This document shows, piece after piece, positions 223 through 52,096 of a DNA stretch of 64,000 nucleotides. Under the pieces are notes generated by a model. The model searched no databases. It worked only from the letters and a program-made list of their open reading frames with translations, and had not been told where the DNA came from. A program made the translations under genes and the position numbers. Source of the stretch: a virus (Duplodnaviria; Caudoviricetes); the IMG/VR virus record IMGVR_UViG_3300033757_000347, one strand, 5' to 3'. Position 1 is the first letter of the stretch; every line of letters begins with the position of its first letter.

Positions 223-1630
223 GAATTTCGTTCAGTTCGTAAACGAAGCGGACATTAAGGACAACCCAGCGATAAGCCCGGAGTACTTTGCTTCGCTGAA
301 CAAGCGAGCAGAAGCAGCAGTCCGTAGGATCGAGCAGAGACACGGACCTGAGATGGCAAGAATGATGCAGTTCGTCATGGAAGTTCAATCCATGCAGAGA
401 GGAAAGGAACGTGCTCTGGAAGCTCTAGCGGAGGATGTCATACTCGATGAGTTCGGTTCCATTCTGGGAGATACAAAGCTTGACATCAAGTTCTCAGATC
501 CGATAGAACTGAGTGCAATGATGAAGAATCCTAACCAGGAAGAGGAAGAAGAAGTGCAGATGCAGAGAATAGAGGACGAAGACACTCGAACTGCTATTCA
601 CAAGCGTAAGATTCTAAATATGATAACTCAAGGAGAAGCATTAAACGCCAAGAAACTTTTCACCGGTGAAGTAGCGGTCGATGGTCTCAACAAGATATTC
701 GGAGAGCAAGCTGCAAGAAAGTTCATCGATCTTCTGGTGAAGATCACTGACATTGCTACTGCAATGGACTGGAGAATACCTGAAGACGTTGCTGCAGAGA
801 TGTGGGAACAAGGGTCAGGATTCAGCGGAGTTTCAAAGGTAGAGTGGAAACCTTCTAAGAAAGACATCGAAGGCGGAATGGGAGACGATGATGAATCGGA
901 AGAAGGAGAGGAAGGGTCTGAAGAAGCAACCATCGTTGCTAGAGGCCTTGACTTTTCCATGCTCGTTCACGAAGCGATAAAGGGAATCTACAGCTTGATA
1001 AACCAAGGAGGGTTAGCTCACCTTGACGACGAGACGATAAAGAAAGTCATGATGAATGCTGATACGATGCAGGACGAGATTCAGGATCTTAAGCGTGGGA
1101 AGCTTACTGCTGCTGATCTTAGGGATTTTCTAAACACTTTCCCTGAAGTCGGAAACATTCCGAACGGAAGGCAGTACGTTTGGGGAAAGATGATAGACGC
1201 TAACGTCGTTCCGGATAAGGATTTTCTGGAACTAATGAAGCTGATATTTACCAGCGCTCCAATCTACAAATCTAGAGAAGAAGCTGGAATAGAGTACACC
1301 GAGCAGGATAGAGCTGGAGCAGAGGAATCTTTTTCAAAAGCAAAGGCAAAGATTCAGGCTCTGATAGATATGATAAAGCAGGAACTTTCAGATTGGGAAG
1401 AATCGCAGCGACCTCGGTCAGTTTACGACGATGACGATGACGAGGAAACTGTCCTCCCAGGAGAAGAAACCGAAACTCCTTGGTTGAACGAGCCAGCAGA
1501 AGAAAAGCCTATGAGCAAGAGAGAAATTCAGGATCTCATAGACAGAGCTCTAGACCGCAGAGATTTTGCCGAAGTCGCTAGGTTGTCACAACTTCAAGTG
1601 AACGAAGCAGCAAAAAATGACGAACCGTAA
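206..1630 (+). CDS. Acidic hypothetical protein, possibly an internal virion protein
   Basis: 474-aa ORF; N-terminus FKNFVQFVNE; C-terminal UVR-like LIDRALDRRDFAEVARL. Confidence 0.7.
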   Translation: MEPVFKNFVQFVNEADIKDNPAISPEYFASLNKRAEAAVRRIEQRHGPEMARMMQFVMEVQSMQRGKERALEALAEDVILDEFGSILGDTKLDIKFSDPIELSAMMKNPNQEEEEEVQMQRIEDEDTRTAIHKRKILNMITQGEALNAKKLFTGEVAVDGLNKIFGEQAARKFIDLLVKITDIATAMDWRIPEDVAAEMWEQGSGFSGVSKVEWKPSKKDIEGGMGDDDESEEGEEGSEEATIVARGLDFSMLVHEAIKGIYSLINQGGLAHLDDETIKKVMMNADTMQDEIQDLKRGKLTAADLRDFLNTFPEVGNIPNGRQYVWGKMIDANVVPDKDFLELMKLIFTSAPIYKSREEAGIEYTEQDRAGAEESFSKAKAKIQALIDMIKQELSDWEESQRPRSVYDDDDDEETVLPGEETETPWLNEPAEEKPMSKREIQDLIDRALDRRDFAEVARLSQLQVNEAAKNDEP

Positions 1631-1631
1631 C

Positions 1632-2317
1632 ATGCGCAAGATTTTTAATTTCGATCAATTTGTCAACGAAGAGTTAAGCCAAGAAGAAAAAGACCGAATT
1701 CGTCGGGAGGCTGAAGATTTCGGAGAACTTTACAGGGCTGGAGTCATAGAACCCAAGCAGTACGATAAGTTTAGGAGAAAACTTTACCGAAGCATGGGCG
1801 GTGGGATGGACCCAATAACCGACCCAACGTTAGGCGAAGTCATTGCTCCGGAACTTTTTCAAGCTATGCAGACTCCAGAATTTCAAGCTTTGGCTGAAGA
1901 TGGTTGGACAGTATCGTCAACTCCCTTGCAAATTTTAACGGAACGGTTGCTATCACCACTAACTCAGCGAACAGAAACGGTCCAAACGGCTGGCCTACTT
2001 CCATAGCTATTACCAAAAACGGTTACGTTAGAAGAATATGGTCCGGAAGAGGGTACGTCGGTCAAGCAAGATCTCGTGAAGAACAAGGCGGGCAACCACA
2101 AGTGATGATATCCGGTCTTCCTGGAACAGGAACAGAACGTTACCAGAACGCGTTTCGTTGGATACGCGGAAACATCGATCCAACTAGTCCAAACTTAAAC
2201 TCTCTGCCGAAGATCAAGAGGAACGATGGCGGAACCGGAATTAAAAGGTACGGCGTAACGTACGCGGAACAAGAACGGCTAAGAAGAGAGCAGGAAAGGC
2301 AGAGAAGAGGTCACTAA
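1632..2317 (+). CDS. Hypothetical protein interrupted by an apparent frameshift near 1933-1936
   Basis: ORFs 1617-2006 and 1904-2317 join as ...TPLQI/FNGTVAIT across a T-run; start MRKIFNFDQFVNE. Confidence 0.5.
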
Positions 2318-19077: not shown

Positions 19078-19920
19078 ATGCTAAACGTAAAGTACGATAG
19101 GCTTAAAAACGAAACGATCGTTGAGCTGCAAAGGTTTACGATGTTTAAACCGGAAGAACTTCCGTTAATCGCAGAATTCAGAAAATCGATAGACGGAGTT
19201 CTATCTTGGATGTCGCCTGTTCCTGAAGGAACTTGGGCATCGTGGAAGGGCGGAGAAACCCTGTACGATGTATTCATCAACACTGCTCAGGGAAAAAGAG
19301 TCATGCACTGGAAGTTCGACGTTAGAGAACACGGAGACCAGCTGGAAAAAACTTTCTACCATTTCATCAAGAACCTTCCTTACCGATCTAAAGGCTTGGT
19401 ACTAGGTTCACACGATGGAACCTTCGGCCACTGGGTATTTCCGGTGTTCAACGACGAAGCAGACGTAGTCATAGTGGACGGAAGCGAGAAACAGTTCGAA
19501 GCGGTAAAGAAAAATTACGCCCACCTGTCAAACGCGAAATTCGTCAACGAGATTGTCACGACGGACGGAGCTGACGTTGATTGGCTGCAGGGCGGCGAGG
19601 GTTTCACAGACACAGTAAGAAAGGACGTTATCGCTCACTTCATTGAGGATGACAAGATAAAGCACACGCAGAGATCCTCAATCGCTATCAACGATCTCAT
19701 CGAGCAGAACGGCGGGTACTTTGATTGGATTCACTTTGACGTGGAAGGGTTGGATGCAGACCTCATACTTTCCCTGAAGTACGAACCTCTCCTGATGATC
19801 TTTGAAACTATGCACATTCCGTCCACTCAGTACTCTGAACTATTGGATTGGATGCAGGAACACAATTACAAATTATTCAACGATGGCTCTAACGCGATCG
19901 CGATAAAAAAAATAAACTGA
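19078..19920 (+). CDS. FkbM-like methyltransferase
   Basis: LGSHDG, IHFDVEGLD. Confidence 0.6.
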   Translation: MLNVKYDRLKNETIVELQRFTMFKPEELPLIAEFRKSIDGVLSWMSPVPEGTWASWKGGETLYDVFINTAQGKRVMHWKFDVREHGDQLEKTFYHFIKNLPYRSKGLVLGSHDGTFGHWVFPVFNDEADVVIVDGSEKQFEAVKKNYAHLSNAKFVNEIVTTDGADVDWLQGGEGFTDTVRKDVIAHFIEDDKIKHTQRSSIAINDLIEQNGGYFDWIHFDVEGLDADLILSLKYEPLLMIFETMHIPSTQYSELLDWMQEHNYKLFNDGSNAIAIKKIN

Positions 19921-29167: not shown

Positions 29168-29283
29168 GCGCTCGTGACTGAGCGGATAAGCACCAGCCGA
29201 AATTGGTACACTGAACGGGCTTACAACCTTAACGTTCAGAAATTAAGCTGGAATCTACGGAGGTTCGAATCCTTCCGAGCGCA
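29168..29283 (+). ncRNA. tRNA-like RNA with an about 50-nt insertion in the anticodon loop
   Basis: Acceptor GCGCTCG/CGAGCGC, stem CCAGC/GCTGG, T arm GGAGG-TTCGAAT-CCTTC. Confidence 0.6.
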
Positions 29284-29385
29284 CAGTAAAGGTTCTTTGA
29301 CATCTTGGAAAATATTGGCACAAAGCTAGGCGGTCTACCGCCCGCCTAGCACAAGCACGGGGCCGTGACGGTGACCCGTGCAAAT

Positions 29386-29458: not shown

Positions 29459-29471
29459 CTCGAATTAAATT

Positions 29472-29555
29472 GTTCCAGTGGCCTGAGCGGCGAAAGGTCC
29501 GGGCTGTTAACCCGACGAGGCAACTCCACCGTAGGTTCGAGTCCTACCTGGAACG
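29472..29555 (+). tRNA. tRNA-Asn(GTT) with long variable arm
   Basis: Loop CT-GTT-AA; G73. Confidence 0.8.
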
Positions 29556-29610
29556 CACAGCTTCTCGCTTTTTCATTTGAGCTAAGATAAATAAAGATAA
29601 AAAGCATAAA

Positions 29611-30246
29611 ATGTTAAAGTGTAAAGTATGCGGAAAAGAATTTCAAACCACCCAATCTCTCGGCGGCCACGTAAGTTCGCATTTTCGTACGAAGACAGAA
29701 AAAATAACGTCAATAAAACAATGTAAATATTGCAATGGAATATTTGAAAATGGTTGGAAACTTGGAGCGCATATCATTAATTGTAAAGCTAATCCAAACA
29801 TAAAGCAAATCATCAAAAAACGAAGTCTTACTATGAAGGGGATAAAACCTTCAATTGAGACCAAGATAAAAATTAGCAATTCTTTGAAGTTAGCACATAA
29901 AGAAAATAGAGCATGGAATATAGGAAAGAGCCGTTGGAATAATGATCCTAGTTATCCAGAAACATTTTTCATGAAAGTTATTAAAAATGAATTCTTAGAC
30001 AAATCGTATGTTAGAGAATACTCGATTGGAAAATACTCTATTGATTTCGCATGGCCTCATAAGAAAATAGCCATCGAAATAGACGGACAACAACATCAGC
30101 GATTCAAAGAATACGTAGAACGCGATGCTAAAAAAGATGAATACTTAAAAAATCATGGATGGTTAGTATTACGACTAAATTGGGTAGACGTTTACAATGA
30201 TCCAAAACGATACATAAATGAAGCTAACTCTTTTGTTGGCTCATAA
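29611..30246 (+). mobile_element. DUF559/Vsr-like endonuclease with C2H2 finger
   Basis: IDFAW, IEIDGQQH, DAKKDEYL..HGWLVLR. Confidence 0.8.
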
Positions 30247-30254
30247 AAAATAAC

Positions 30255-30378
30255 GGGGGAAAACAAACAGACTGCTCTGTCGATTTTCTTCAGAAATGAT
30301 AGCAATGATTAGAGTTGCATCGGTAAACTTCAAACTTGAAACTTTGAAATGTTGGTTCGAATCCAGCTTCCCCCACCA
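30255..30378 (+). ncRNA. Y-like/tRNA chimera A (shared module replaces the D arm; acceptor stem and CCA intact)
   Basis: GGGGGAA/TTCCCCC-A-CCA; GCTCTGTCGATTTTCT..TAGCAATGATTAGAGTTGCATCG. Confidence 0.7.
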
Positions 30379-30412
30379 ATAACGTTCGTACCACGGTAAA
30401 AGGTACACACTC

Positions 30413-30532
30413 GGGGAAGAAATTCAAAACGCTCTGTCGAATTTCTTCTGAAAGGATAGCAAAGATTAGAGTTGCATCGGAAACAATCAAACTGTCAATT
30501 TGATCACGTGAGTTCGAATCTCACCTTCCCCG
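30413..30532 (+). ncRNA. Y-like/tRNA chimera B (Asp GTC anticodon arm; module replaces the D arm)
   Basis: GGGGAAG/CTTCCCC-G; ATCAAA-CTGTCAA-TTTGAT; T arm. Confidence 0.7.
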
Positions 30533-30573
30533 CATCTTCCGCACCCTCCAGGAAATCAAAAATAGAGGGAAAT

Positions 30574-31624: not shown

Positions 31625-32017
31625 ATGAGAATAGTTGAAGATTTTGTAAGAGAAACGCCAAGGGATATTCGTAAGCAAATGTTAAAGCTTGATGAACCTT
31701 GCCACGAAAGAGGATTAAAGTATTCGACTCAGTTAATCGCACTAGTTGCTTATCATTACGATACGACGATGCCAGTAAATGGAAACACTCTAGTCGTTTG
31801 CCACGGTTGTCATAATTCAAAGTGCAGTAATCCAAATCACATGTATTGGGGTACAAAAGCTGACAATCAACTCGATGAATACGAAAACGGAGCAATATCA
31901 ATTTACGAACGAATGCTTAATAAGTACGGCAAAGAAAAAACGTCAAGCATGATGAAAAAGAATTCATCTAAAGGCGGTAAATCGCCAAGAAAAAATAAAG
32001 TGTTAATGGCCTCGTAG
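31625..32017 (+). mobile_element. HNH (His-Me finger) endonuclease
   Basis: VCHGCHNSKCSNPNHMYWGTKADN. Confidence 0.8.
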
Positions 32018-32092
32018 CTCAGTCAGGTTGCGCAAGCTTAGAGCTTCCGCCTTTTAAGCGGAAAGTCGTTGGTTCGAATCCAACCGGGGTCA
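32008..32092 (+). tRNA. tRNA-Lys(TTT) with enlarged D loop
   Basis: Loop CT-TTT-AA; extra hairpin in the D loop. Confidence 0.8.
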
Positions 32093-32137
32093 CAGATTGG
32101 AAAGGTTCGAGTCCCTCCGGGCCTACCAAAGAAATTT

Positions 32138-33412: not shown

Positions 33413-33619
33413 CACCTCTTAGCTCAGCGGTTAGAGCGTCCGGTTGAGGGCCGGAACTTGAGGACTTCGGTAAGGTACTCGTTTACTTTTGCGCAGAGGT
33501 AACCGATGAAGTAGCCGGGAGAGTCAAGGTAGACGAACCTGAAAATCAAGATGAGGGTACCCGAATCAAGACCATACGGTGTAGTCGAGAAGTCAGAGGT
33601 TCAAATCCTCTAGGGGTGT
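33413..33619 (+). ncRNA. tRNA-like RNA (GAG anticodon) with an about 135-nt insertion in the variable region
   Basis: CACCTCT/AGGGGTG, D arm, TCCGG-TTGAGGG-CCGGA, T arm AGAGG-TTCAAAT-CCTCT. Confidence 0.65.
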
Positions 33620-33744
33620 CGATGAGCCGGCAGGCCACCGGATCGTAGTTCCTCGCTTTCCCTGATCGTAAGGTCAAACGACGAGCCGCACCGTAAGGCG
33701 GACGGGTTGGCAACTCCCGCTGACATTGAACAAAGTTGCATAAC

Positions 33745-36626: not shown

Positions 36627-36687
36627 TTAAATGGCATAACGCATCCTTGGTAAGGATGAATTTCGAGTTCGATTCTCGATTTGAGCT
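36617..36687 (+). tRNA. tRNA-Thr(GGT)
   Basis: CATCC-TTGGTAA-GGATG. Confidence 0.8.
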
Positions 36688-36690
36688 CAC

Positions 36691-36886
36691 AGTTAATCGA
36701 AAGTACTTAACGCGGGAAACTGAGGAAATTGGTGCCACCTTTGCTGGTTGTCGGAGCTTAACAGCGTTCGTACGACATTGGTGCAAGTCAAACAGGCTTA
36801 GAGGGTCAGCAACTCTACGATAGCCGGGTTGATGCTAAGATAAATGTTAGGTGAGAAACAGAAGTCCAATTACGAAACGATTAACT
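36691..36886 (+). ncRNA. rnpB: Minimal RNase P RNA-like ribozyme (about 196 nt)
   Basis: P1 AGTTAATCG/CGATTAACT; P2 ACTTAAC/GTTAGGT; GAGGAAATTGG and AAACAGAAGTCCAATTA (P4); GGTGCAAG; AGATAAATG. Confidence 0.75.
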
Positions 36887-39412: not shown

Positions 39413-39480
39413 AGACGTAGCAAACAGAAAGGGTTACTTCGTATCGGAAAATGAAAACACTCTATGCGATTTTCTCGTCT
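39413..39480 (+). ncRNA. Y-like RNA H (module only)
   Basis: AGACG-TAGCAA..AGGGTTACTTCG..ACTCT-ATGCGATTTTCT-CGTCT. Confidence 0.7.
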
Positions 39481-39488
39481 TTTTACAT

Positions 39489-39562
39489 GGTGTTTATAGT
39501 GTTAATGGTCAGCACGAAAGTTTGTGGCACTTTTAGTACCAGTTCGAATCTGGTTAGACACC
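39489..39562 (+). tRNA. tRNA-His(GTG)
   Basis: G-1/C73; loop TT-GTG-GC. Confidence 0.85.
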
Positions 39563-39687
39563 CATTTTTAAAAACGAGTCATGCCGCAATAGCTCAACGG
39601 TTAGAGCGCTTACTGAAAAATGCGGTTTGAAACATTCTTTGTTTTTTACTTTTTGATTATGGGGACAGTATAAATAAATAAAAAACT

Positions 39688-41131: not shown

Positions 41132-42760
41132 ATGACAAAGTTCAGAAACGCAAATCTTCGTACTAAGCTTGCCAAGACGGCGCCTAAGGCGAAGTTAGTA
41201 GCTGCTAACGCAGTTCCTACGCCTAACACTGTCAATCGTTCGGGCCACGCGGCTTATGCGATCGACAAGTGGTTGAGACTGATCACAATGCTCAACACCT
41301 TGAAGCTGGAAAACCAGTTCTACAGGTCAGAAAATGAAACCATGAGGGAACTCAAGGGCATCGTTACTGCCTGTGCAAAGGAAGATCCTTACCTAACCGC
41401 ACAGTGCATCGTGTACTCACGTTGCGTTGGTGAAGGTATGAGGTCGATCAACCACCTCGCAGCAAGCTACCTCGCTCCTTACTGCGCTGGTCTCGAATGG
41501 GCGAAGAGGTTCTACTCACTGTGGAACAAGAAGACTCAGTCTGGTGGAACCATTTTCCGTCCAGATGACATGGCCGAAATTCTCGCCTGTTTCTCGGCTA
41601 TGAACAAGACGAAGGCAACGAACTCAATGAAGAAGGGTTTCGCAGACGCAATCGAAAGGCTCGACGCATACTCGATCCTTAAGTACAAGTCCGCTTTGAT
41701 CGACGTTATCAACCTCGTTCACCCTGACCCAAAGCAGTCGAAGGCATTCGTTGAATTCAAGGGCGAAAGGGTGACCGCTATCGACGCTGTCATCAAGGGC
41801 TTGGCCGTATCTGCCGACACCTGGGAAGTTGCTAACTCTGACGCAGGTCAGGAAGTTGCAAAGGCCGTAAAGGCTGGCAAGATCACCAAGGCCGAAGGTG
41901 CAGAAATCCTCAAGGAAGCTAAGGCTGAAAACTGGGGAGCTCTGTTGACCGAAGGTAAGCTAGGTACTCTAGCAGCTCTGCGTAACATCAGGAGCATTCT
42001 GAACACGGTCTCCGATCGTGCGACGATTGACAAGCTGTGCGCGGTTCTGTCGGATCCAAACCTTATCAGGCAGGCAAAGATCATGCCTTACCAGATCGAC
42101 ATGGCCGGCGAAATTCTGCTCGCAGAATTCGGCTCGAAGATGGACGGAAGGAAGATCGCTCAGGCTCTGTTGATCGGTTACGAAGCATCCGTTCCAAACC
42201 TTGCGGAAGCATTGCCAGGAAGGAACCTCGTTATCATCGACAGGTCCGGCTCCATGACCACGAAGATGGTCGACCCTAACAGGAAGACTCAGTACTCAAC
42301 GTCATGTGCTGACAAGGCATCCTTGATCGGAGCAACAATCGCGAAGGCAACAAACGCTGACGTTATTCAGTTCGGATCGAGCGCTCACTACACTCCATGG
42401 AACGCAAACCAGGACGTATTCTCGATCGCAAGGTCGTTCAATGCTAACCTTGGTGGAACCAACCTAAGCACCGCTTGGGATCTGGCAGCACGTTCCGGAA
42501 AGGCGTACGACAGGGTGTTCATCCTCTCTGACAACGAATGCAACCGTGGAAACACGTACTCTTCGTACACGAACTACCTGAGGACTGTTGGAAACCCATA
42601 CGTCTACTCTGTAGACATGGCGTCCTACGGCACGACTCAGCTGATCGGAGACAAGGTCCGTTTCTACTACGGTTACGGCTTCTCGATGTTCGACGACATC
42701 GCCAACGTCGAATTCAATCCTACATACCACCTGGACAAGGTACGTAAGATCGTAATCTAA
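41132..42760 (+). CDS. Ro60/Rsr-like TROVE-domain RNA-binding protein with C-terminal vWA domain
   Basis: VNRSGHAAY, QFYRSE, ALRNIRSI, MIDAS DRSGSM, GGTN, ILSDNE; 542 aa. Confidence 0.85.
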   Translation: MTKFRNANLRTKLAKTAPKAKLVAANAVPTPNTVNRSGHAAYAIDKWLRLITMLNTLKLENQFYRSENETMRELKGIVTACAKEDPYLTAQCIVYSRCVGEGMRSINHLAASYLAPYCAGLEWAKRFYSLWNKKTQSGGTIFRPDDMAEILACFSAMNKTKATNSMKKGFADAIERLDAYSILKYKSALIDVINLVHPDPKQSKAFVEFKGERVTAIDAVIKGLAVSADTWEVANSDAGQEVAKAVKAGKITKAEGAEILKEAKAENWGALLTEGKLGTLAALRNIRSILNTVSDRATIDKLCAVLSDPNLIRQAKIMPYQIDMAGEILLAEFGSKMDGRKIAQALLIGYEASVPNLAEALPGRNLVIIDRSGSMTTKMVDPNRKTQYSTSCADKASLIGATIAKATNADVIQFGSSAHYTPWNANQDVFSIARSFNANLGGTNLSTAWDLAARSGKAYDRVFILSDNECNRGNTYSSYTNYLRTVGNPYVYSVDMASYGTTQLIGDKVRFYYGYGFSMFDDIANVEFNPTYHLDKVRKIVI

Positions 42761-42803: not shown

Positions 42804-42808
42804 CACAT

Positions 42809-42917
42809 GGAGTAAAAGGGCCGAAACGGTCCCGAAGGACCTGCTAAAAGCCTAGGTAAGTTAGTAAGGCTTCGGAAAAGCTGAATCGGATTGCTAGTTC
42901 AATTCTGGCTACTCCTC
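42809..42917 (+). ncRNA. Atypical tRNA-like RNA downstream of Ro60
   Basis: GGAGTA/TACTCC; T arm GCTAG-TTCAATT-CTGGC; several small hairpins instead of D and anticodon arms. Confidence 0.5.
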
Positions 42918-50764: not shown

Positions 50765-50884
50765 ATGAAATAGGTAACGAGACAACCACGCAAAACTAAA
50801 AGACCTCAGCGTTTCGCAGAGGCGACCCAAACGGGCGCTCGCGTGACGTTCTCGACCAAGTTTAGTAATAGCGCCCGTTTTTTA
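50765..50884 (+). promoter_or_regulatory. M-K-amber leader followed by a terminator-like hairpin
   Basis: ATG AAA TAG at 50765; AAACGGGCGCT (50829-39)/AGCGCCCGTTT (50870-80) plus T-tract. Confidence 0.6.
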
Positions 50885-50887
50885 TAT

Positions 50888-50960
50888 CGCGGGGTGGCAG
50901 CAGAGGTAGCTCGCAAGGCTCATAACCTTGAGGTCGGAGGTTCGAATCCTTCTCCCGCAA
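50888..50960 (+). tRNA. tRNA-fMet(CAT)
   Basis: C1:A72 mismatch; loop CT-CAT-AA. Confidence 0.9.
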
Positions 50961-51012
50961 CACTTGTAGGTATCGCATCGGGCAAGTACTGGAATCTACC
51001 TACTATTTTTTT

Positions 51013-51044
51013 ACCTCATCCTGAAAGGGGTGAGGTTTTTTATT
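51013..51044 (+). terminator. Intrinsic terminator between tRNA-fMet and the RNA ligase gene
   Basis: ACCTCATCC-TGAAA-GGGGTGAGGT plus T-tract. Confidence 0.7.
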
Positions 51045-51058
51045 GGTACAATACTCTC

Positions 51059-52096
51059 ATGGAAGCACCAGTACTACATACACGAGATGAATTTCGCGAG
51101 AAGGTTTTCGAACGCGATAATCACAGTTGCGTGATATGTGGAAAGCCAGCAAAAGACGCACATCACATAATAGAACGGAGACTGTTTTCAAACGGCGGGT
51201 ACTATTTGGAAAATGGAGCTTCTCTGTGCGAGGAACACCACATAGCAGCCGAACAGACTACTCTGTCGTGCGACGAAATCAGAGAAAAAGCAGGTATCAC
51301 TAGAATTGTTATACCGGATCAGCTATACGATGATAATGCGTATGATAAGTGGGGAAACATAATCCTTCCGACTGGAAATCGTTTGAAAGGTGAACTGTTC
51401 TACGATGAATCAGTTCAAAAGATACTCAAGCAGGGAGGAGTCTTGGACCTGTTTCAAAAGTACGTAAAGTACCCAAGAACGATGCACCTTCCGTGGAGCA
51501 ACCTGCTAAAGGACGATAGAATACTAGAAAACGACGAACATTTCATCGGTCGTGAAGTAGTATGCACACTGAAGATGGACGGCGAAAACACGACTATGTA
51601 CAACGATAAGATCCATGCTCGTTCGCTGGACTCAGCTTCTCACGAGACCAGAAACTGGGTAAAAGGTCTTTGGGCTAGAATATCGTGGATGATTGACGAT
51701 AACATGCGACTGTGCGGAGAGAACCTTTACGCGGTACATTCCTTAAAATACGACAGCTTACCATCCTATTTTATGCTATTTTCGGTGTGGGTAGACAATG
51801 TCTGCTTAAGCTGGAAGGAAACGGAAGAGTACGCTGGTATTTTGGGATTGCAAACGGTGCCCGTCATATACCAGGGAATTTACGACAGAGAAAAGATCGA
51901 GAAAGCATTTGCTAAGTACGCAGACACTAACGAAGGTTACGTGATTAGATTGGCTGACCAATTTCTCTATTCTGACTTCAGGCGAAGCATAGCAAAATAC
52001 GTTCGCCCGCAGTTCAGGCAAGCTGTCAACAATTCTCACGGACACTGGATCTCAAAAAAGATAGAAACTAACACGCTGAAAGGTGACAATTCATAG
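51059..52096 (+). CDS. HNH domain fused to an ATP-dependent RNA ligase
   Basis: VFERDNHSCVIC..DAHHI..N..LCEEHH; KYPRTMHLPWS, motif I KMDGEN, GEN, EGYVIR, AKYVR. Confidence 0.85.
   Translation: MEAPVLHTRDEFREKVFERDNHSCVICGKPAKDAHHIIERRLFSNGGYYLENGASLCEEHHIAAEQTTLSCDEIREKAGITRIVIPDQLYDDNAYDKWGNIILPTGNRLKGELFYDESVQKILKQGGVLDLFQKYVKYPRTMHLPWSNLLKDDRILENDEHFIGREVVCTLKMDGENTTMYNDKIHARSLDSASHETRNWVKGLWARISWMIDDNMRLCGENLYAVHSLKYDSLPSYFMLFSVWVDNVCLSWKETEEYAGILGLQTVPVIYQGIYDREKIEKAFAKYADTNEGYVIRLADQFLYSDFRRSIAKYVRPQFRQAVNNSHGHWISKKIETNTLKGDNS

What the first reader, a model, noticed from the sequence alone, without database searches (positions are those of the whole stretch)
30255..30532. Two chimeras keep the acceptor stem and 3' end and carry the module in place of the D arm
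Seen: in A and B the module strands are in reversed order (RCTCT..TTTCT first) and form an internal arm, while the acceptor, anticodon and T arms remain. B has GTC plus G73 (Asp identity elements). A ends in ACCA. This is a circular permutation of the other family members. Inference: these are potentially aminoacylatable, protein-tethered tRNAs.
Basis: partly seen in the sequence, partly recalled or inferred. Interest (0 to 1): 0.7.

Follow-up and report, generated by a model that had tools for sequence, protein, structure and literature searches.

The report
tRNA-shaped Y RNAs with Ro60 handle
Two neighbouring small-RNA genes in a large uncultured sludge phage look like tRNAs in which the D arm is replaced by the conserved bulged hairpin that marks this phage group's Ro60-linked Y RNAs; this gives a Y RNA/tRNA hybrid with a normal tRNA acceptor end that I could not find described.

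Summary
A (30255-30378) and B (30413-32) each have a 7-bp acceptor stem, an anticodon-like arm, a canonical T arm and a discriminator. A also encodes CCA. Between the acceptor and anticodon stems sits a roughly 50-nt bulged hairpin capped by a GNRA tetraloop.

This hairpin is the same module whose two strands flank eight other tRNA-like bodies in the array and more than 100 in related phages. In A and B the strand order is reversed, so they are circular permutations at module level.

The capped form is a conserved class. I found 23 pattern hits in 19 of 63 related viral records and none with the reversed control pattern. Sixteen of 19 distinct hits carry a full tRNA frame, with compensatory changes in every helix.

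The module travels with a phage Ro60 (TROVE) gene in both directions of search. Sludge metatranscriptome contigs run through A and B without any splice.

Not shown: Ro60 binding, the RNA ends, or charging. Across the class the discriminator often conflicts with the anticodon, and about half of the loops are not 7 nt. This argues against general aminoacylation.

Verdict: a new variant of tRNA-mimicking Y RNAs. Other first-stage notes of this scan cover the same family, and this same stretch, on this genome.

The parts
30255..30378 (+). Element A: whole predicted RNA, from acceptor 5' strand to encoded CCA, 124 nt
   Evidence: consensus fold
30255..30261 (+). A acceptor stem, 5' strand; pairs with 30368-30374 (7 of 7)
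30262..30273 (+). A: A-rich single-stranded linker (9-20 nt across the class)
30274..30315 (+). A module hairpin. Helix III 30274-78/30311-15; bulge with CGA 30279-85; helix II 30286-91/30298-305 with a bulged U and a bulged C; cap 30292-97 (A-U pair plus GAAA)
30315..30326 (+). A: conserved tail of the module plus four bases, forming a 3-4-bp mini-hairpin at the D-arm position
   Evidence: the Rfam tRNA model aligns this stretch to the D arm
30329..30348 (+). A anticodon-like arm: 6-bp stem and an 8-nt loop that holds the tRNA-Phe-like UUGAAA
30351..30367 (+). A T arm (5-bp stem, canonical 7-nt T loop)
30368..30378 (+). A acceptor 3' strand, A73 and encoded CCA
30388..30406 (+). Spacer hairpin between A and B (5-bp stem, 9-nt loop); equivalents with a near-identical loop in G001 and G008
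   Evidence: read by eye
30413..30532 (+). Element B: whole predicted RNA up to G73; no encoded CCA
30431..30472 (+). B module hairpin. Helix III 30431-35/30468-72; bulge holding GUCGAA 30436-42; helix II 30443-48/30455-62; cap 30449-54 (U-G pair plus GAAA)
30486..30504 (+). B anticodon arm: 6-bp stem, 7-nt loop, anticodon GTC at 30494-96
30508..30532 (+). B T arm (30508-24), acceptor 3' strand (30525-31) and G73 (30532)
41132..42760 (+). Phage Ro60 homolog (TROVE plus vWA), the proposed protein partner of the module
36676..36880 (+). RNase P-like RNA inside the array; a possible 5'-end maturase for A and B

Best explanation
A and B are members of a conserved class of phage Y-like RNAs with tRNA topology.

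Proposed steps:
1. They are transcribed within the tRNA array.
2. They are cut out like tRNAs: RNase P cleaves before G1, and the 3' end is trimmed and completed with CCA.
3. They fold into a tRNA-like core: acceptor stem stacked on the T arm, an anticodon-like arm, and a stub of a D arm.
4. From the hinge projects a roughly 20-bp bulged helix capped by a GNRA tetraloop. This is the same helix that closes the other Y-like RNAs of this phage group, and it is the docking site for the phage Ro60 ring protein.

The product is a Ro60 particle carrying a tRNA-shaped handle with a free NCCA end. By analogy with YrlA, the handle would link Ro60 (and host PNPase) to tRNA-handling enzymes, or serve as a mimic or decoy of particular tRNAs.

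Shown here: the architecture, its conservation and covariation, co-occurrence of the module with Ro60, and the unspliced form in RNA-library contigs.

Inferred: Ro60 binding, end processing and function.
For: - Architecture and strand reversal.
- RNAalifold, run with no structural constraints on the 16-member alignment that I anchored by segments, returns exactly acceptor, helix III, helix II with two bulges, anticodon stem and T stem.
- Double-sided changes occur in 6 of 7 acceptor pairs, 3 of 5 helix III pairs, 2 of 6 helix II pairs, 5 of 5 anticodon-stem pairs and 4 of 5 T-stem pairs. Paired cells exceed all 500 shuffles.
- 15 of 16 caps have the form closing pair + GNRA, and the closing pair covaries.
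- The class occurs in 19 of 63 related records with 0 control hits. 16 of 19 distinct hits have a perfect 7-bp acceptor and a T arm.
- The ORF at 41132-42760 is a Ro60 homolog: TROVE and Ro60-type vWA domains, and a full-length match to Thermus phage phiLo Ro60 (9KOP, E 1.1e-9).
- Module motifs lie in 27 of 30 loci fetched through that protein.
- In the other direction, 21 of 33 records fetched through the module motif alone encode the protein, including 6 of 7 records that are at least 90% complete.
- In a 635-kb GenBank megaphage whose Ro60 is only 32% identical, two modules sit within 0.5 kb upstream of the gene.
- In several relatives the capped RNAs lie 0.3-2.8 kb from Ro60 on the same strand.
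- The base at -1 is U in 13 of 16 and C in 3 of 16 class members, against U 31 and C 9 of 44 array tRNAs. CCA is encoded in 7 of 16 against 16 of 44.
- An RNase P-like RNA lies in the array.
- Metatranscriptome contigs from three studies cross the modules without a joint. One contig type spans 30243-30534.
- Precedents: M. smegmatis YrlA is cut by RNase P and gains CCA while bound to Rsr (PMC4201824). Phage Ro60 binds stem-bulge-stem Y-like RNAs with a CGAA bulge (PMC12135203).
Against: - There is no binding data of any kind.
- In this genome A and B lie 10.6 kb from the Ro60 gene.
- The Rfam YrlA model does not match A or B at E up to 10.
- The published GNCGAAN0-1G motif is only partly present. 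B has GUCGAA without the final G, A has GUCGAU, and many family members have no CGA.
- Single-sequence folds are no more stable than shuffles (z -0.82 and -0.37) and do not recover the module pairing.
- 12 of 33 module-bearing records lack a Ro60 match. Most are fragments, but one is 92% complete.
- My class alignment was built with pairing filters, so the 'cells paired' figures are partly by construction. Only the two-sided changes are informative.
- Contigs cannot show RNA ends, and an RNA library may contain DNA.
Confidence: 0.6

Rival explanations
1. A and B are working, chargeable tRNAs (B for Asp; A for Phe or Ser) that carry an extra protein-binding arm. The amino acid or the ribosome is part of their function.
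For: - 7-bp acceptor, N73, CCA (A) and a canonical T loop.
- B has GUC, G73, G2:C71 and a 7-nt loop with U33.
- Members with CAU or GUA loops have A73, as Met and Tyr rules require.
- End signals match those of real tRNAs.
- From established knowledge: D-armless mitochondrial tRNAs and tmRNA show that charging can survive loss of the D arm.
Against: - A and its orthologs have 8-9-nt loops and discriminators A, G and U.
- GUG members lack C73 and G-1, the GCA member lacks U73, and the UGG member lacks A73. These rules are from established bacterial identity sets.
- Nearly the same acceptor stem serves many different anticodons, so the loops were swapped on one scaffold without retuning identity.
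- The array already has two tRNA-Asp and one tRNA-Phe.
- One ortholog lost a base of the acceptor 3' strand and another lost the T loop.
- The record encodes no aaRS of the Asp/Lys/Asn or Phe type.
Confidence: 0.15
2. The hairpin is a functional module, but its partner is not Ro60. It could be another phage or host protein, or the hairpin could have a purely structural role, such as a GNRA-mediated tertiary contact that replaces the D/T-loop elbow.
For: - The module differs from the canonical Ro60 site and scores nothing with the YrlA model.
- GNRA caps are classic tertiary-contact elements.
- One 92%-complete module-bearing record has no Ro60 match.
Against: - Two-way co-occurrence with Ro60, down to 32% protein identity, with immediate adjacency.
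- The same helix, uncapped, closes simple hairpin RNAs with no tRNA body (39413-39490). There an elbow-replacing role makes no sense.
Confidence: 0.17
3. The module is an intervening sequence or mobile insertion. It is removed from the transcript (the phage encodes an RNA ligase), or A and B are decaying tRNA pseudogenes disrupted by it.
For: - RNA ligase gene at 50843-52096.
- The array is crowded with homing endonuclease genes.
- Copy number differs between near-identical strains: 2 against 3.
Against: - Removing the insert would leave no D arm.
- RNA-library contigs from three studies keep the module, and no joint lies inside A or B.
- The module and the tRNA frame are both conserved, with compensatory changes, across Ro60 identities of 37-99%.
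- Module strands also flank bodies in the open form, which an insertion cannot explain.
Confidence: 0.05

Closest known systems
YrlA (Y RNA-like A, Rfam RF02553; Chen et al. 2014, PMC4201824)
   Same: A small RNA linked to a Ro60 ortholog gene that joins a bulged protein-binding helix to a tRNA-like domain with a canonical T arm. It also occurs in phages.
   Different: In YrlA the RNA ends form the Ro60-binding helix, the acceptor-like stem is a closed hairpin, a D arm is present and there is no anticodon loop. In A and B the helix is capped, the ends lie in a 7-bp acceptor stem, the D arm is a stub and an anticodon-like arm is present. The helix sequence also differs, and the Rfam model does not match.
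[quoted passage not shown]
   Same: A Ro60-bound Y RNA whose 7-bp acceptor stem has tRNA-type ends with CCA.
   Different: That RNA becomes two paired pieces, because the Ro60 helix is also open. A and B would be single chains. Its ends are made by cutting a loop, not encoded as gene termini.
Thermus phage phiLo Yrl1/Yrl2 with phage Ro60 (PMC12135203)
   Same: A phage-encoded Ro60 homologous over its full length to the ORF here, shown to bind stem-bulge-stem RNAs carrying a CGAA bulge and to assemble with host PNPase.
   Different: Those RNAs are simple 5'-3' stems with no tRNA frame, as described in the text I read.
tmRNA tRNA-like domain
   Same: Acceptor stem, T arm and CCA with a degenerate D region, plus a large insertion and a dedicated protein partner. 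It is a chargeable tRNA mimic.
   Different: tmRNA lacks an anticodon arm and has the G3:U70 Ala identity pair. A and B have G3:C70. The Rfam tmRNA models give only noise (12.7 bits).
Open-type module RNAs of the same phage group (31156-31290, 32305-32405, 33993-34105, 38677-38831, 43140-43260, 43543-43679)
   Same: The same helix II, bulges, helix III and conserved tail, and the same tRNA-derived bodies with varied anticodon loops.
   Different: Their strand order is opposite and their RNA ends lie at the base of the module. In A and B the module is an internal capped arm and the ends are tRNA ends.

Membership tests
tRNA (RF00005) | Detected as a full cloverleaf by tRNA finders or the covariance model at the curated threshold | tested here: not met
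   ARAGORN makes no call. Rfam tRNA gives 19.2 bits (A) and 24.8 bits (B) against 29, covering model positions 9-63 only.
tRNA (RF00005) | 7-bp acceptor stem, discriminator, T arm with a canonical T loop | tested here: met
   Conserved with compensatory changes in 16 class members.
tRNA (RF00005) | D arm with a G18/G19-bearing loop | tested here: not met
   Only a 3-4-bp stub with a 4-nt loop remains. The module occupies the space.
tRNA (RF00005) | 7-nt anticodon loop with U33 | tested here: inconclusive
   B meets it. A has 8 nt. Across the class, loops are 6-9 nt and about half are 7 nt.
YrlA / bacterial Y RNA (RF02553) | Score at or above the Rfam gathering threshold | tested here: not met
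   No YrlA match to A or B at E up to 10. A neighbouring open-type member reaches only 18.1 bits against 69.
YrlA / bacterial Y RNA (RF02553) | Encoded near a Ro60 ortholog on the same strand (within about 4 kb in Chen et al. 2014) | tested here: inconclusive
   Same strand but 10.6 kb away here. In relatives, capped members lie 0.3-2.8 kb from Ro60 on the same strand.
YrlA / bacterial Y RNA (RF02553) | Ro60-binding helix formed by the RNA's 5' and 3' ends, carrying GNCGAAN0-1G | tested here: not met
   The helix is an internal capped hairpin. B has GUCGAA without the final G and A has GUCGAU.
YrlA / bacterial Y RNA (RF02553) | tRNA-like domain with T arm, D arm and a closed acceptor-like stem-loop | tested here: not met
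   T arm present, D arm reduced to a stub, acceptor open.
YrlA / bacterial Y RNA (RF02553) | Physical binding to Ro60/Rsr | not testable with these tools
   Only co-occurrence is available.
Module-bearing Y-like RNAs of this phage group (uncatalogued) | Helix II (UAGYAA against UUCU, two bulges), internal bulge, 5-bp helix III and a conserved 7-nt tail | tested here: met
   Present in A and B with all pairs standard. The same parts occur in 71 parsed instances with many complementary helix III variants.

The most novel reading that the evidence does not exclude
The capped class is matured and charged like tRNA while bound to phage Ro60. Phage Ro60 particles would then carry an aminoacylated, or at least CCA-ended and synthetase- or EF-Tu-recognisable, tRNA body. 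Such a body could bring the Ro60/PNPase machine to ribosomes or to tRNA-targeting host defence nucleases, or it could act as a protected decoy for them. The varied anticodon loops on one scaffold (GUC, GUA, GUG, CAU, GAA-like, GCA, UGG) would then track which host tRNAs are attacked.
Probability: 0.15. Interest if true: 0.85.

Novelty: new variant of a known kind. Interest (0 to 1): 0.62.

Why it matters
Y RNAs are known as Ro60 tethers and gates. Bacterial YrlA showed that they can mimic tRNA, but what the mimicry is for remains open.

This class is the most tRNA-like form I found. It has real tRNA ends, an anticodon-like arm that changes between relatives, and the protein handle moved to the D-arm position. 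It sits in a phage that also carries 44 tRNAs, an RNase P-like RNA and an RNA ligase.

It gives a compact, single-chain substrate of about 120 nt for three direct tests:
- whether Ro60 particles are built on RNAs that tRNA enzymes process or charge;
- whether the handle works equally well in either connectivity;
- whether phages use such RNAs in the fight over host and phage tRNAs.

It also shows that tRNA finders miss a recurrent gene class in phage tRNA arrays.

Tried and rejected
- Single-sequence MFE folds: z-scores were not significant and the module was mis-paired, so they are not usable as evidence either way.
- An exact 17-mer of the module tail in IMG/VR gave one hit inside a coding region (L032). 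This was chance.
- BLAST of A/B against GenBank phages matched only a T-arm fragment.
- Alternative local hairpin within the 5' strand (GYAA with UURC): no family-wide covariation. C pairs with G in 6 of 33 C cases and meets A in 26. Rejected.
- An early idea that the cap is a UUUC/GAAA stem was rejected, because orthologs have GCAA or GCGA there. The cap is one closing pair plus GNRA.
- MAFFT alignments (A2-A4) misplace the 5' acceptor strand because the linker length varies. I therefore built no covariance model and did the structural parse and pair counts in scripts.
- Relaxed capped patterns in the own genome hit only coding-region look-alikes.
- No CCA-adding enzyme, class II Asp/Lys/Asn-type or Phe-type synthetase, or RtcB was found in the 67%-complete record.
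- G049's pattern hit (L150) has no tRNA frame and is taken as a false positive.
- Metatranscriptome contigs cannot show starts, ends or levels. Parts without cover, and the higher word depth of the tRNA-Gly-A-B contig (101 and 303 against 16-54 for neighbouring contigs), are not used as evidence of expression level.
- No cultured relative was found: the best GenBank Ro60 match is 32% identical, in an uncultured megaphage.

Full report
**Setting.** The window is the reverse strand of a 174-kb IMG/VR virus record (G000, 44% G+C, estimated 67% complete). From 29.3 to 43.7 kb it holds a dense array of 42 of the 44 ARAGORN-called tRNA genes, with homing-endonuclease ORFs in between. The ORF at 41132-42760 has TROVE and Ro60-type vWA matches. 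It aligns over nearly its whole length to the solved Ro60 of Thermus phage phiLo (9KOP/9L5Y, E 1.1e-9). Its GenBank phage homologs are annotated as Ro-like RNA-binding proteins; the closest is 32% identical, so no cultured relative exists. An RNA ligase gene lies at 50843-52096.

**The observation.** A and B are read directly from the sequence.
- A has a 7-bp acceptor stem (30255-61 with 30368-74), A73 and an encoded CCA. It has a canonical T arm (30351-67) and a 6-bp anticodon-like stem with an 8-nt loop.
- B has a 7-bp acceptor stem (30413-19 with 30525-31) and G73. It has a T arm (30508-24) and a 6-bp stem with a 7-nt loop carrying GTC.
- Neither is called by ARAGORN. The Rfam tRNA model matches only positions 9-63, below threshold.
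- Between acceptor and anticodon stems lie an A-rich linker and a hairpin of about 42 nt.

**The module.** A 12-nt motif in that hairpin recurs at eight other places in the array. It belongs to a bipartite module:
- One strand reads UAGYAA, then 4-7 nt, a 5-nt helix III strand and a conserved 7-nt tail.
- The other strand carries the complementary helix III strand, a 5-9-nt bulge that often holds CGA, then UUCU and two more bases.
- Helix II pairs UUCU-NN with NN-U-AG-Y-AA, leaving the U and the Y bulged.

In 71 parsed instances from the window and relatives, helix III takes at least 16 different complementary 5-mer pairs. The two outer helix II pairs take six complementary forms. In the open members the UAGYAA strand is 5' of a tRNA-derived body and the UUCU strand is 3' of it. 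In A and B the order is reversed, and the two strands are joined by one closing pair plus a GNRA tetraloop.

**Conservation of the capped form.**
- The pattern that requires UUCU within about 10 nt upstream of UAGYAA hits only A and B in the record, with 0 hits in 20 shuffles.
- It hits 13 places in 10 of 30 records fetched through the Ro60 protein.
- It hits 10 places in 9 of 33 records fetched through the open-module motif.
- The reversed-pattern control scored 0 in every record.
- A strain with 99% identical Ro60 (G001) has three tandem copies where this window has two, at about 85% identity.
- An automatic parse finds a perfect 7-bp acceptor plus T arm around 16 of 19 distinct hits. The exceptions lack one acceptor base, have a bulged T stem, or have lost the T loop.
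- Eight different acceptor sequences occur, all of them 7 bp.
- RNAalifold, run with no structural constraints on the 16-member alignment that I anchored by segments, returns exactly the five expected helices.
- Two-sided changes occur in 6/7 acceptor, 3/5 helix III, 2/6 helix II, 5/5 anticodon-stem and 4/5 T-stem pairs.
- Caveat: the parse required pairing, so the percentage of paired cells is partly built in. The diversity of complementary pairs is the real evidence.

**A refinement.** The last base of helix III, the first three tail bases and four bases after the tail form a 3-4-bp mini-hairpin, often with a UUCG-type loop. It is perfect in 10 of 16 capped members, A included; B has 3 of 4 pairs. 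Only 12 of 149 open-type tails can do this. The Rfam tRNA model aligns this stretch to the D arm. So the D arm is reduced to a stub and the module sits just 5' of it.

**Link to Ro60.**
- Module motifs occur in 27 of the 30 Ro60-anchored loci; the three without are fragments of 4-5 kb.
- Searching IMG/VR with the module motif alone gave 90 stretches.
- Of 33 longer records among them, 21 encode a homolog of the Ro60 ORF, including 6 of 7 that are at least 90% complete.
- In a 635-kb GenBank megaphage two open modules lie within 0.5 kb upstream of a 32%-identical Ro60 gene.
- Ro60 is rare among phages (PMC7824862), so this two-way association is unlikely to be chance.
- Published Ro60 sites are bulged helices with a CGAA-type motif (PMC4201824, PMC12135203). 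B has GUCGAA in its bulge, but the motif is not general in the family. The YrlA model does not match A or B. Binding remains an inference.

**Ends and splicing.**
- The base before G1 is U in 13 and C in 3 of 16 class members, against U 31 and C 9 of 44 for the array's tRNAs.
- CCA is encoded in 7 of 16 class members against 16 of 44 tRNAs.
- These figures fit maturation by the same machinery as the tRNAs. The precedent is M. smegmatis YrlA, which RNase P cuts and which gains CCA while bound to Rsr.
- Contigs from sludge and wastewater metatranscriptome libraries of three studies cross the modules without any joint. One contig type, in two runs of one study, covers 30243-30534 unbroken.
- That contig joins tRNA-Gly to A through 82 other letters in place of 29460-30242.
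- Contigs cannot show ends, strand or level, and DNA carry-over cannot be excluded.

**Aminoacylation.**
- B fits bacterial Asp rules in GUC, G73 and G2:C71, but it lacks G10.
- A and its orthologs have 8-9-nt loops containing the tRNA-Phe-like UUGAAA, and their discriminators are A, G and U.
- Across the class the anticodon-like triplets include GUC, GUA, GUG, CAU, GCA, UGG and GAA-like, set on nearly the same acceptor stem.
- GUG members lack C73 and G-1, the GCA member lacks U73, and the UGG member lacks A73. These identity rules come from established knowledge of E. coli sets.
- The record encodes no Asp/Lys/Asn-type or Phe-type synthetase and no CCA-adding enzyme.
- Charging is therefore possible for single members such as B, but it is not what selection appears to maintain across the class.

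**Verdict.** A and B belong to a conserved class of tRNA-topology Y-like RNAs carrying the phage group's Ro60-associated helix as an internal capped arm, and I found no published description of it. The class is a new variant of the YrlA kind and is not a member of the Rfam family. Function, partner binding and RNA ends still need the experiments listed under next steps.

Noticed in passing
window 29460-30242: In two sludge metatranscriptome runs of one study, a contig joins tRNA-Gly (to 29459) to A (from 30243) through 82 other letters. That strain therefore lacks tRNA-Asn and the zinc-finger/DUF559 endonuclease ORF at 29611-30246. This is a presence/absence polymorphism typical of a mobile homing-endonuclease cassette.
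   Followed up: partly
window 30388-30406; L044 and L043 equivalents: The spacer between the A-type and B-type genes forms a 5-bp hairpin with a 9-nt loop. The loop is nearly identical in G001 and G008, while the stem bases differ. It may be a processing or termination signal.
   Followed up: no
window 42805-42915: Directly after the Ro60 ORF lies another uncalled tRNA-like element: a 6-bp acceptor-like stem and a T arm at 42893. It encloses a hairpin whose sequence resembles the vertebrate Ro60-binding GGUCCGA stretch.
   Followed up: no
window 32008-32135: The tRNA-Leu call is followed within 10 nt by a second T-arm-like motif and an ACCA end (32103-32133), so two T arms share one region. 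It could be a nested or duplicated tRNA-like gene.
   Followed up: no
window 33419-33640 and 39590-39608: Canonical D-arm sequences occur without a called tRNA. One is followed about 170 nt later by a T arm at 33595, which could mean an interrupted or intron-bearing tRNA. The other lies just before an endonuclease-like ORF.
   Followed up: no
window 29168-29285: An uncalled tRNA-like element has a 7-bp acceptor stem, a D arm, a long internal insertion and a T arm at 29259. It lies just upstream of the first called tRNA.
   Followed up: no
L044 (G001) 1446-1865, minus strand: A strain whose Ro60 is 99% identical carries three tandem capped RNAs instead of two. Its B ortholog has lost one C from the acceptor 3' strand. 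This could be real decay or a homopolymer assembly error.
   Followed up: partly
L153 (LR745206.1) 19460-19700: A 635-kb GenBank megaphage has two simple open-module hairpin RNAs within 0.5 kb upstream of its Ro60 homolog. The record carries no annotation at all.
   Followed up: partly
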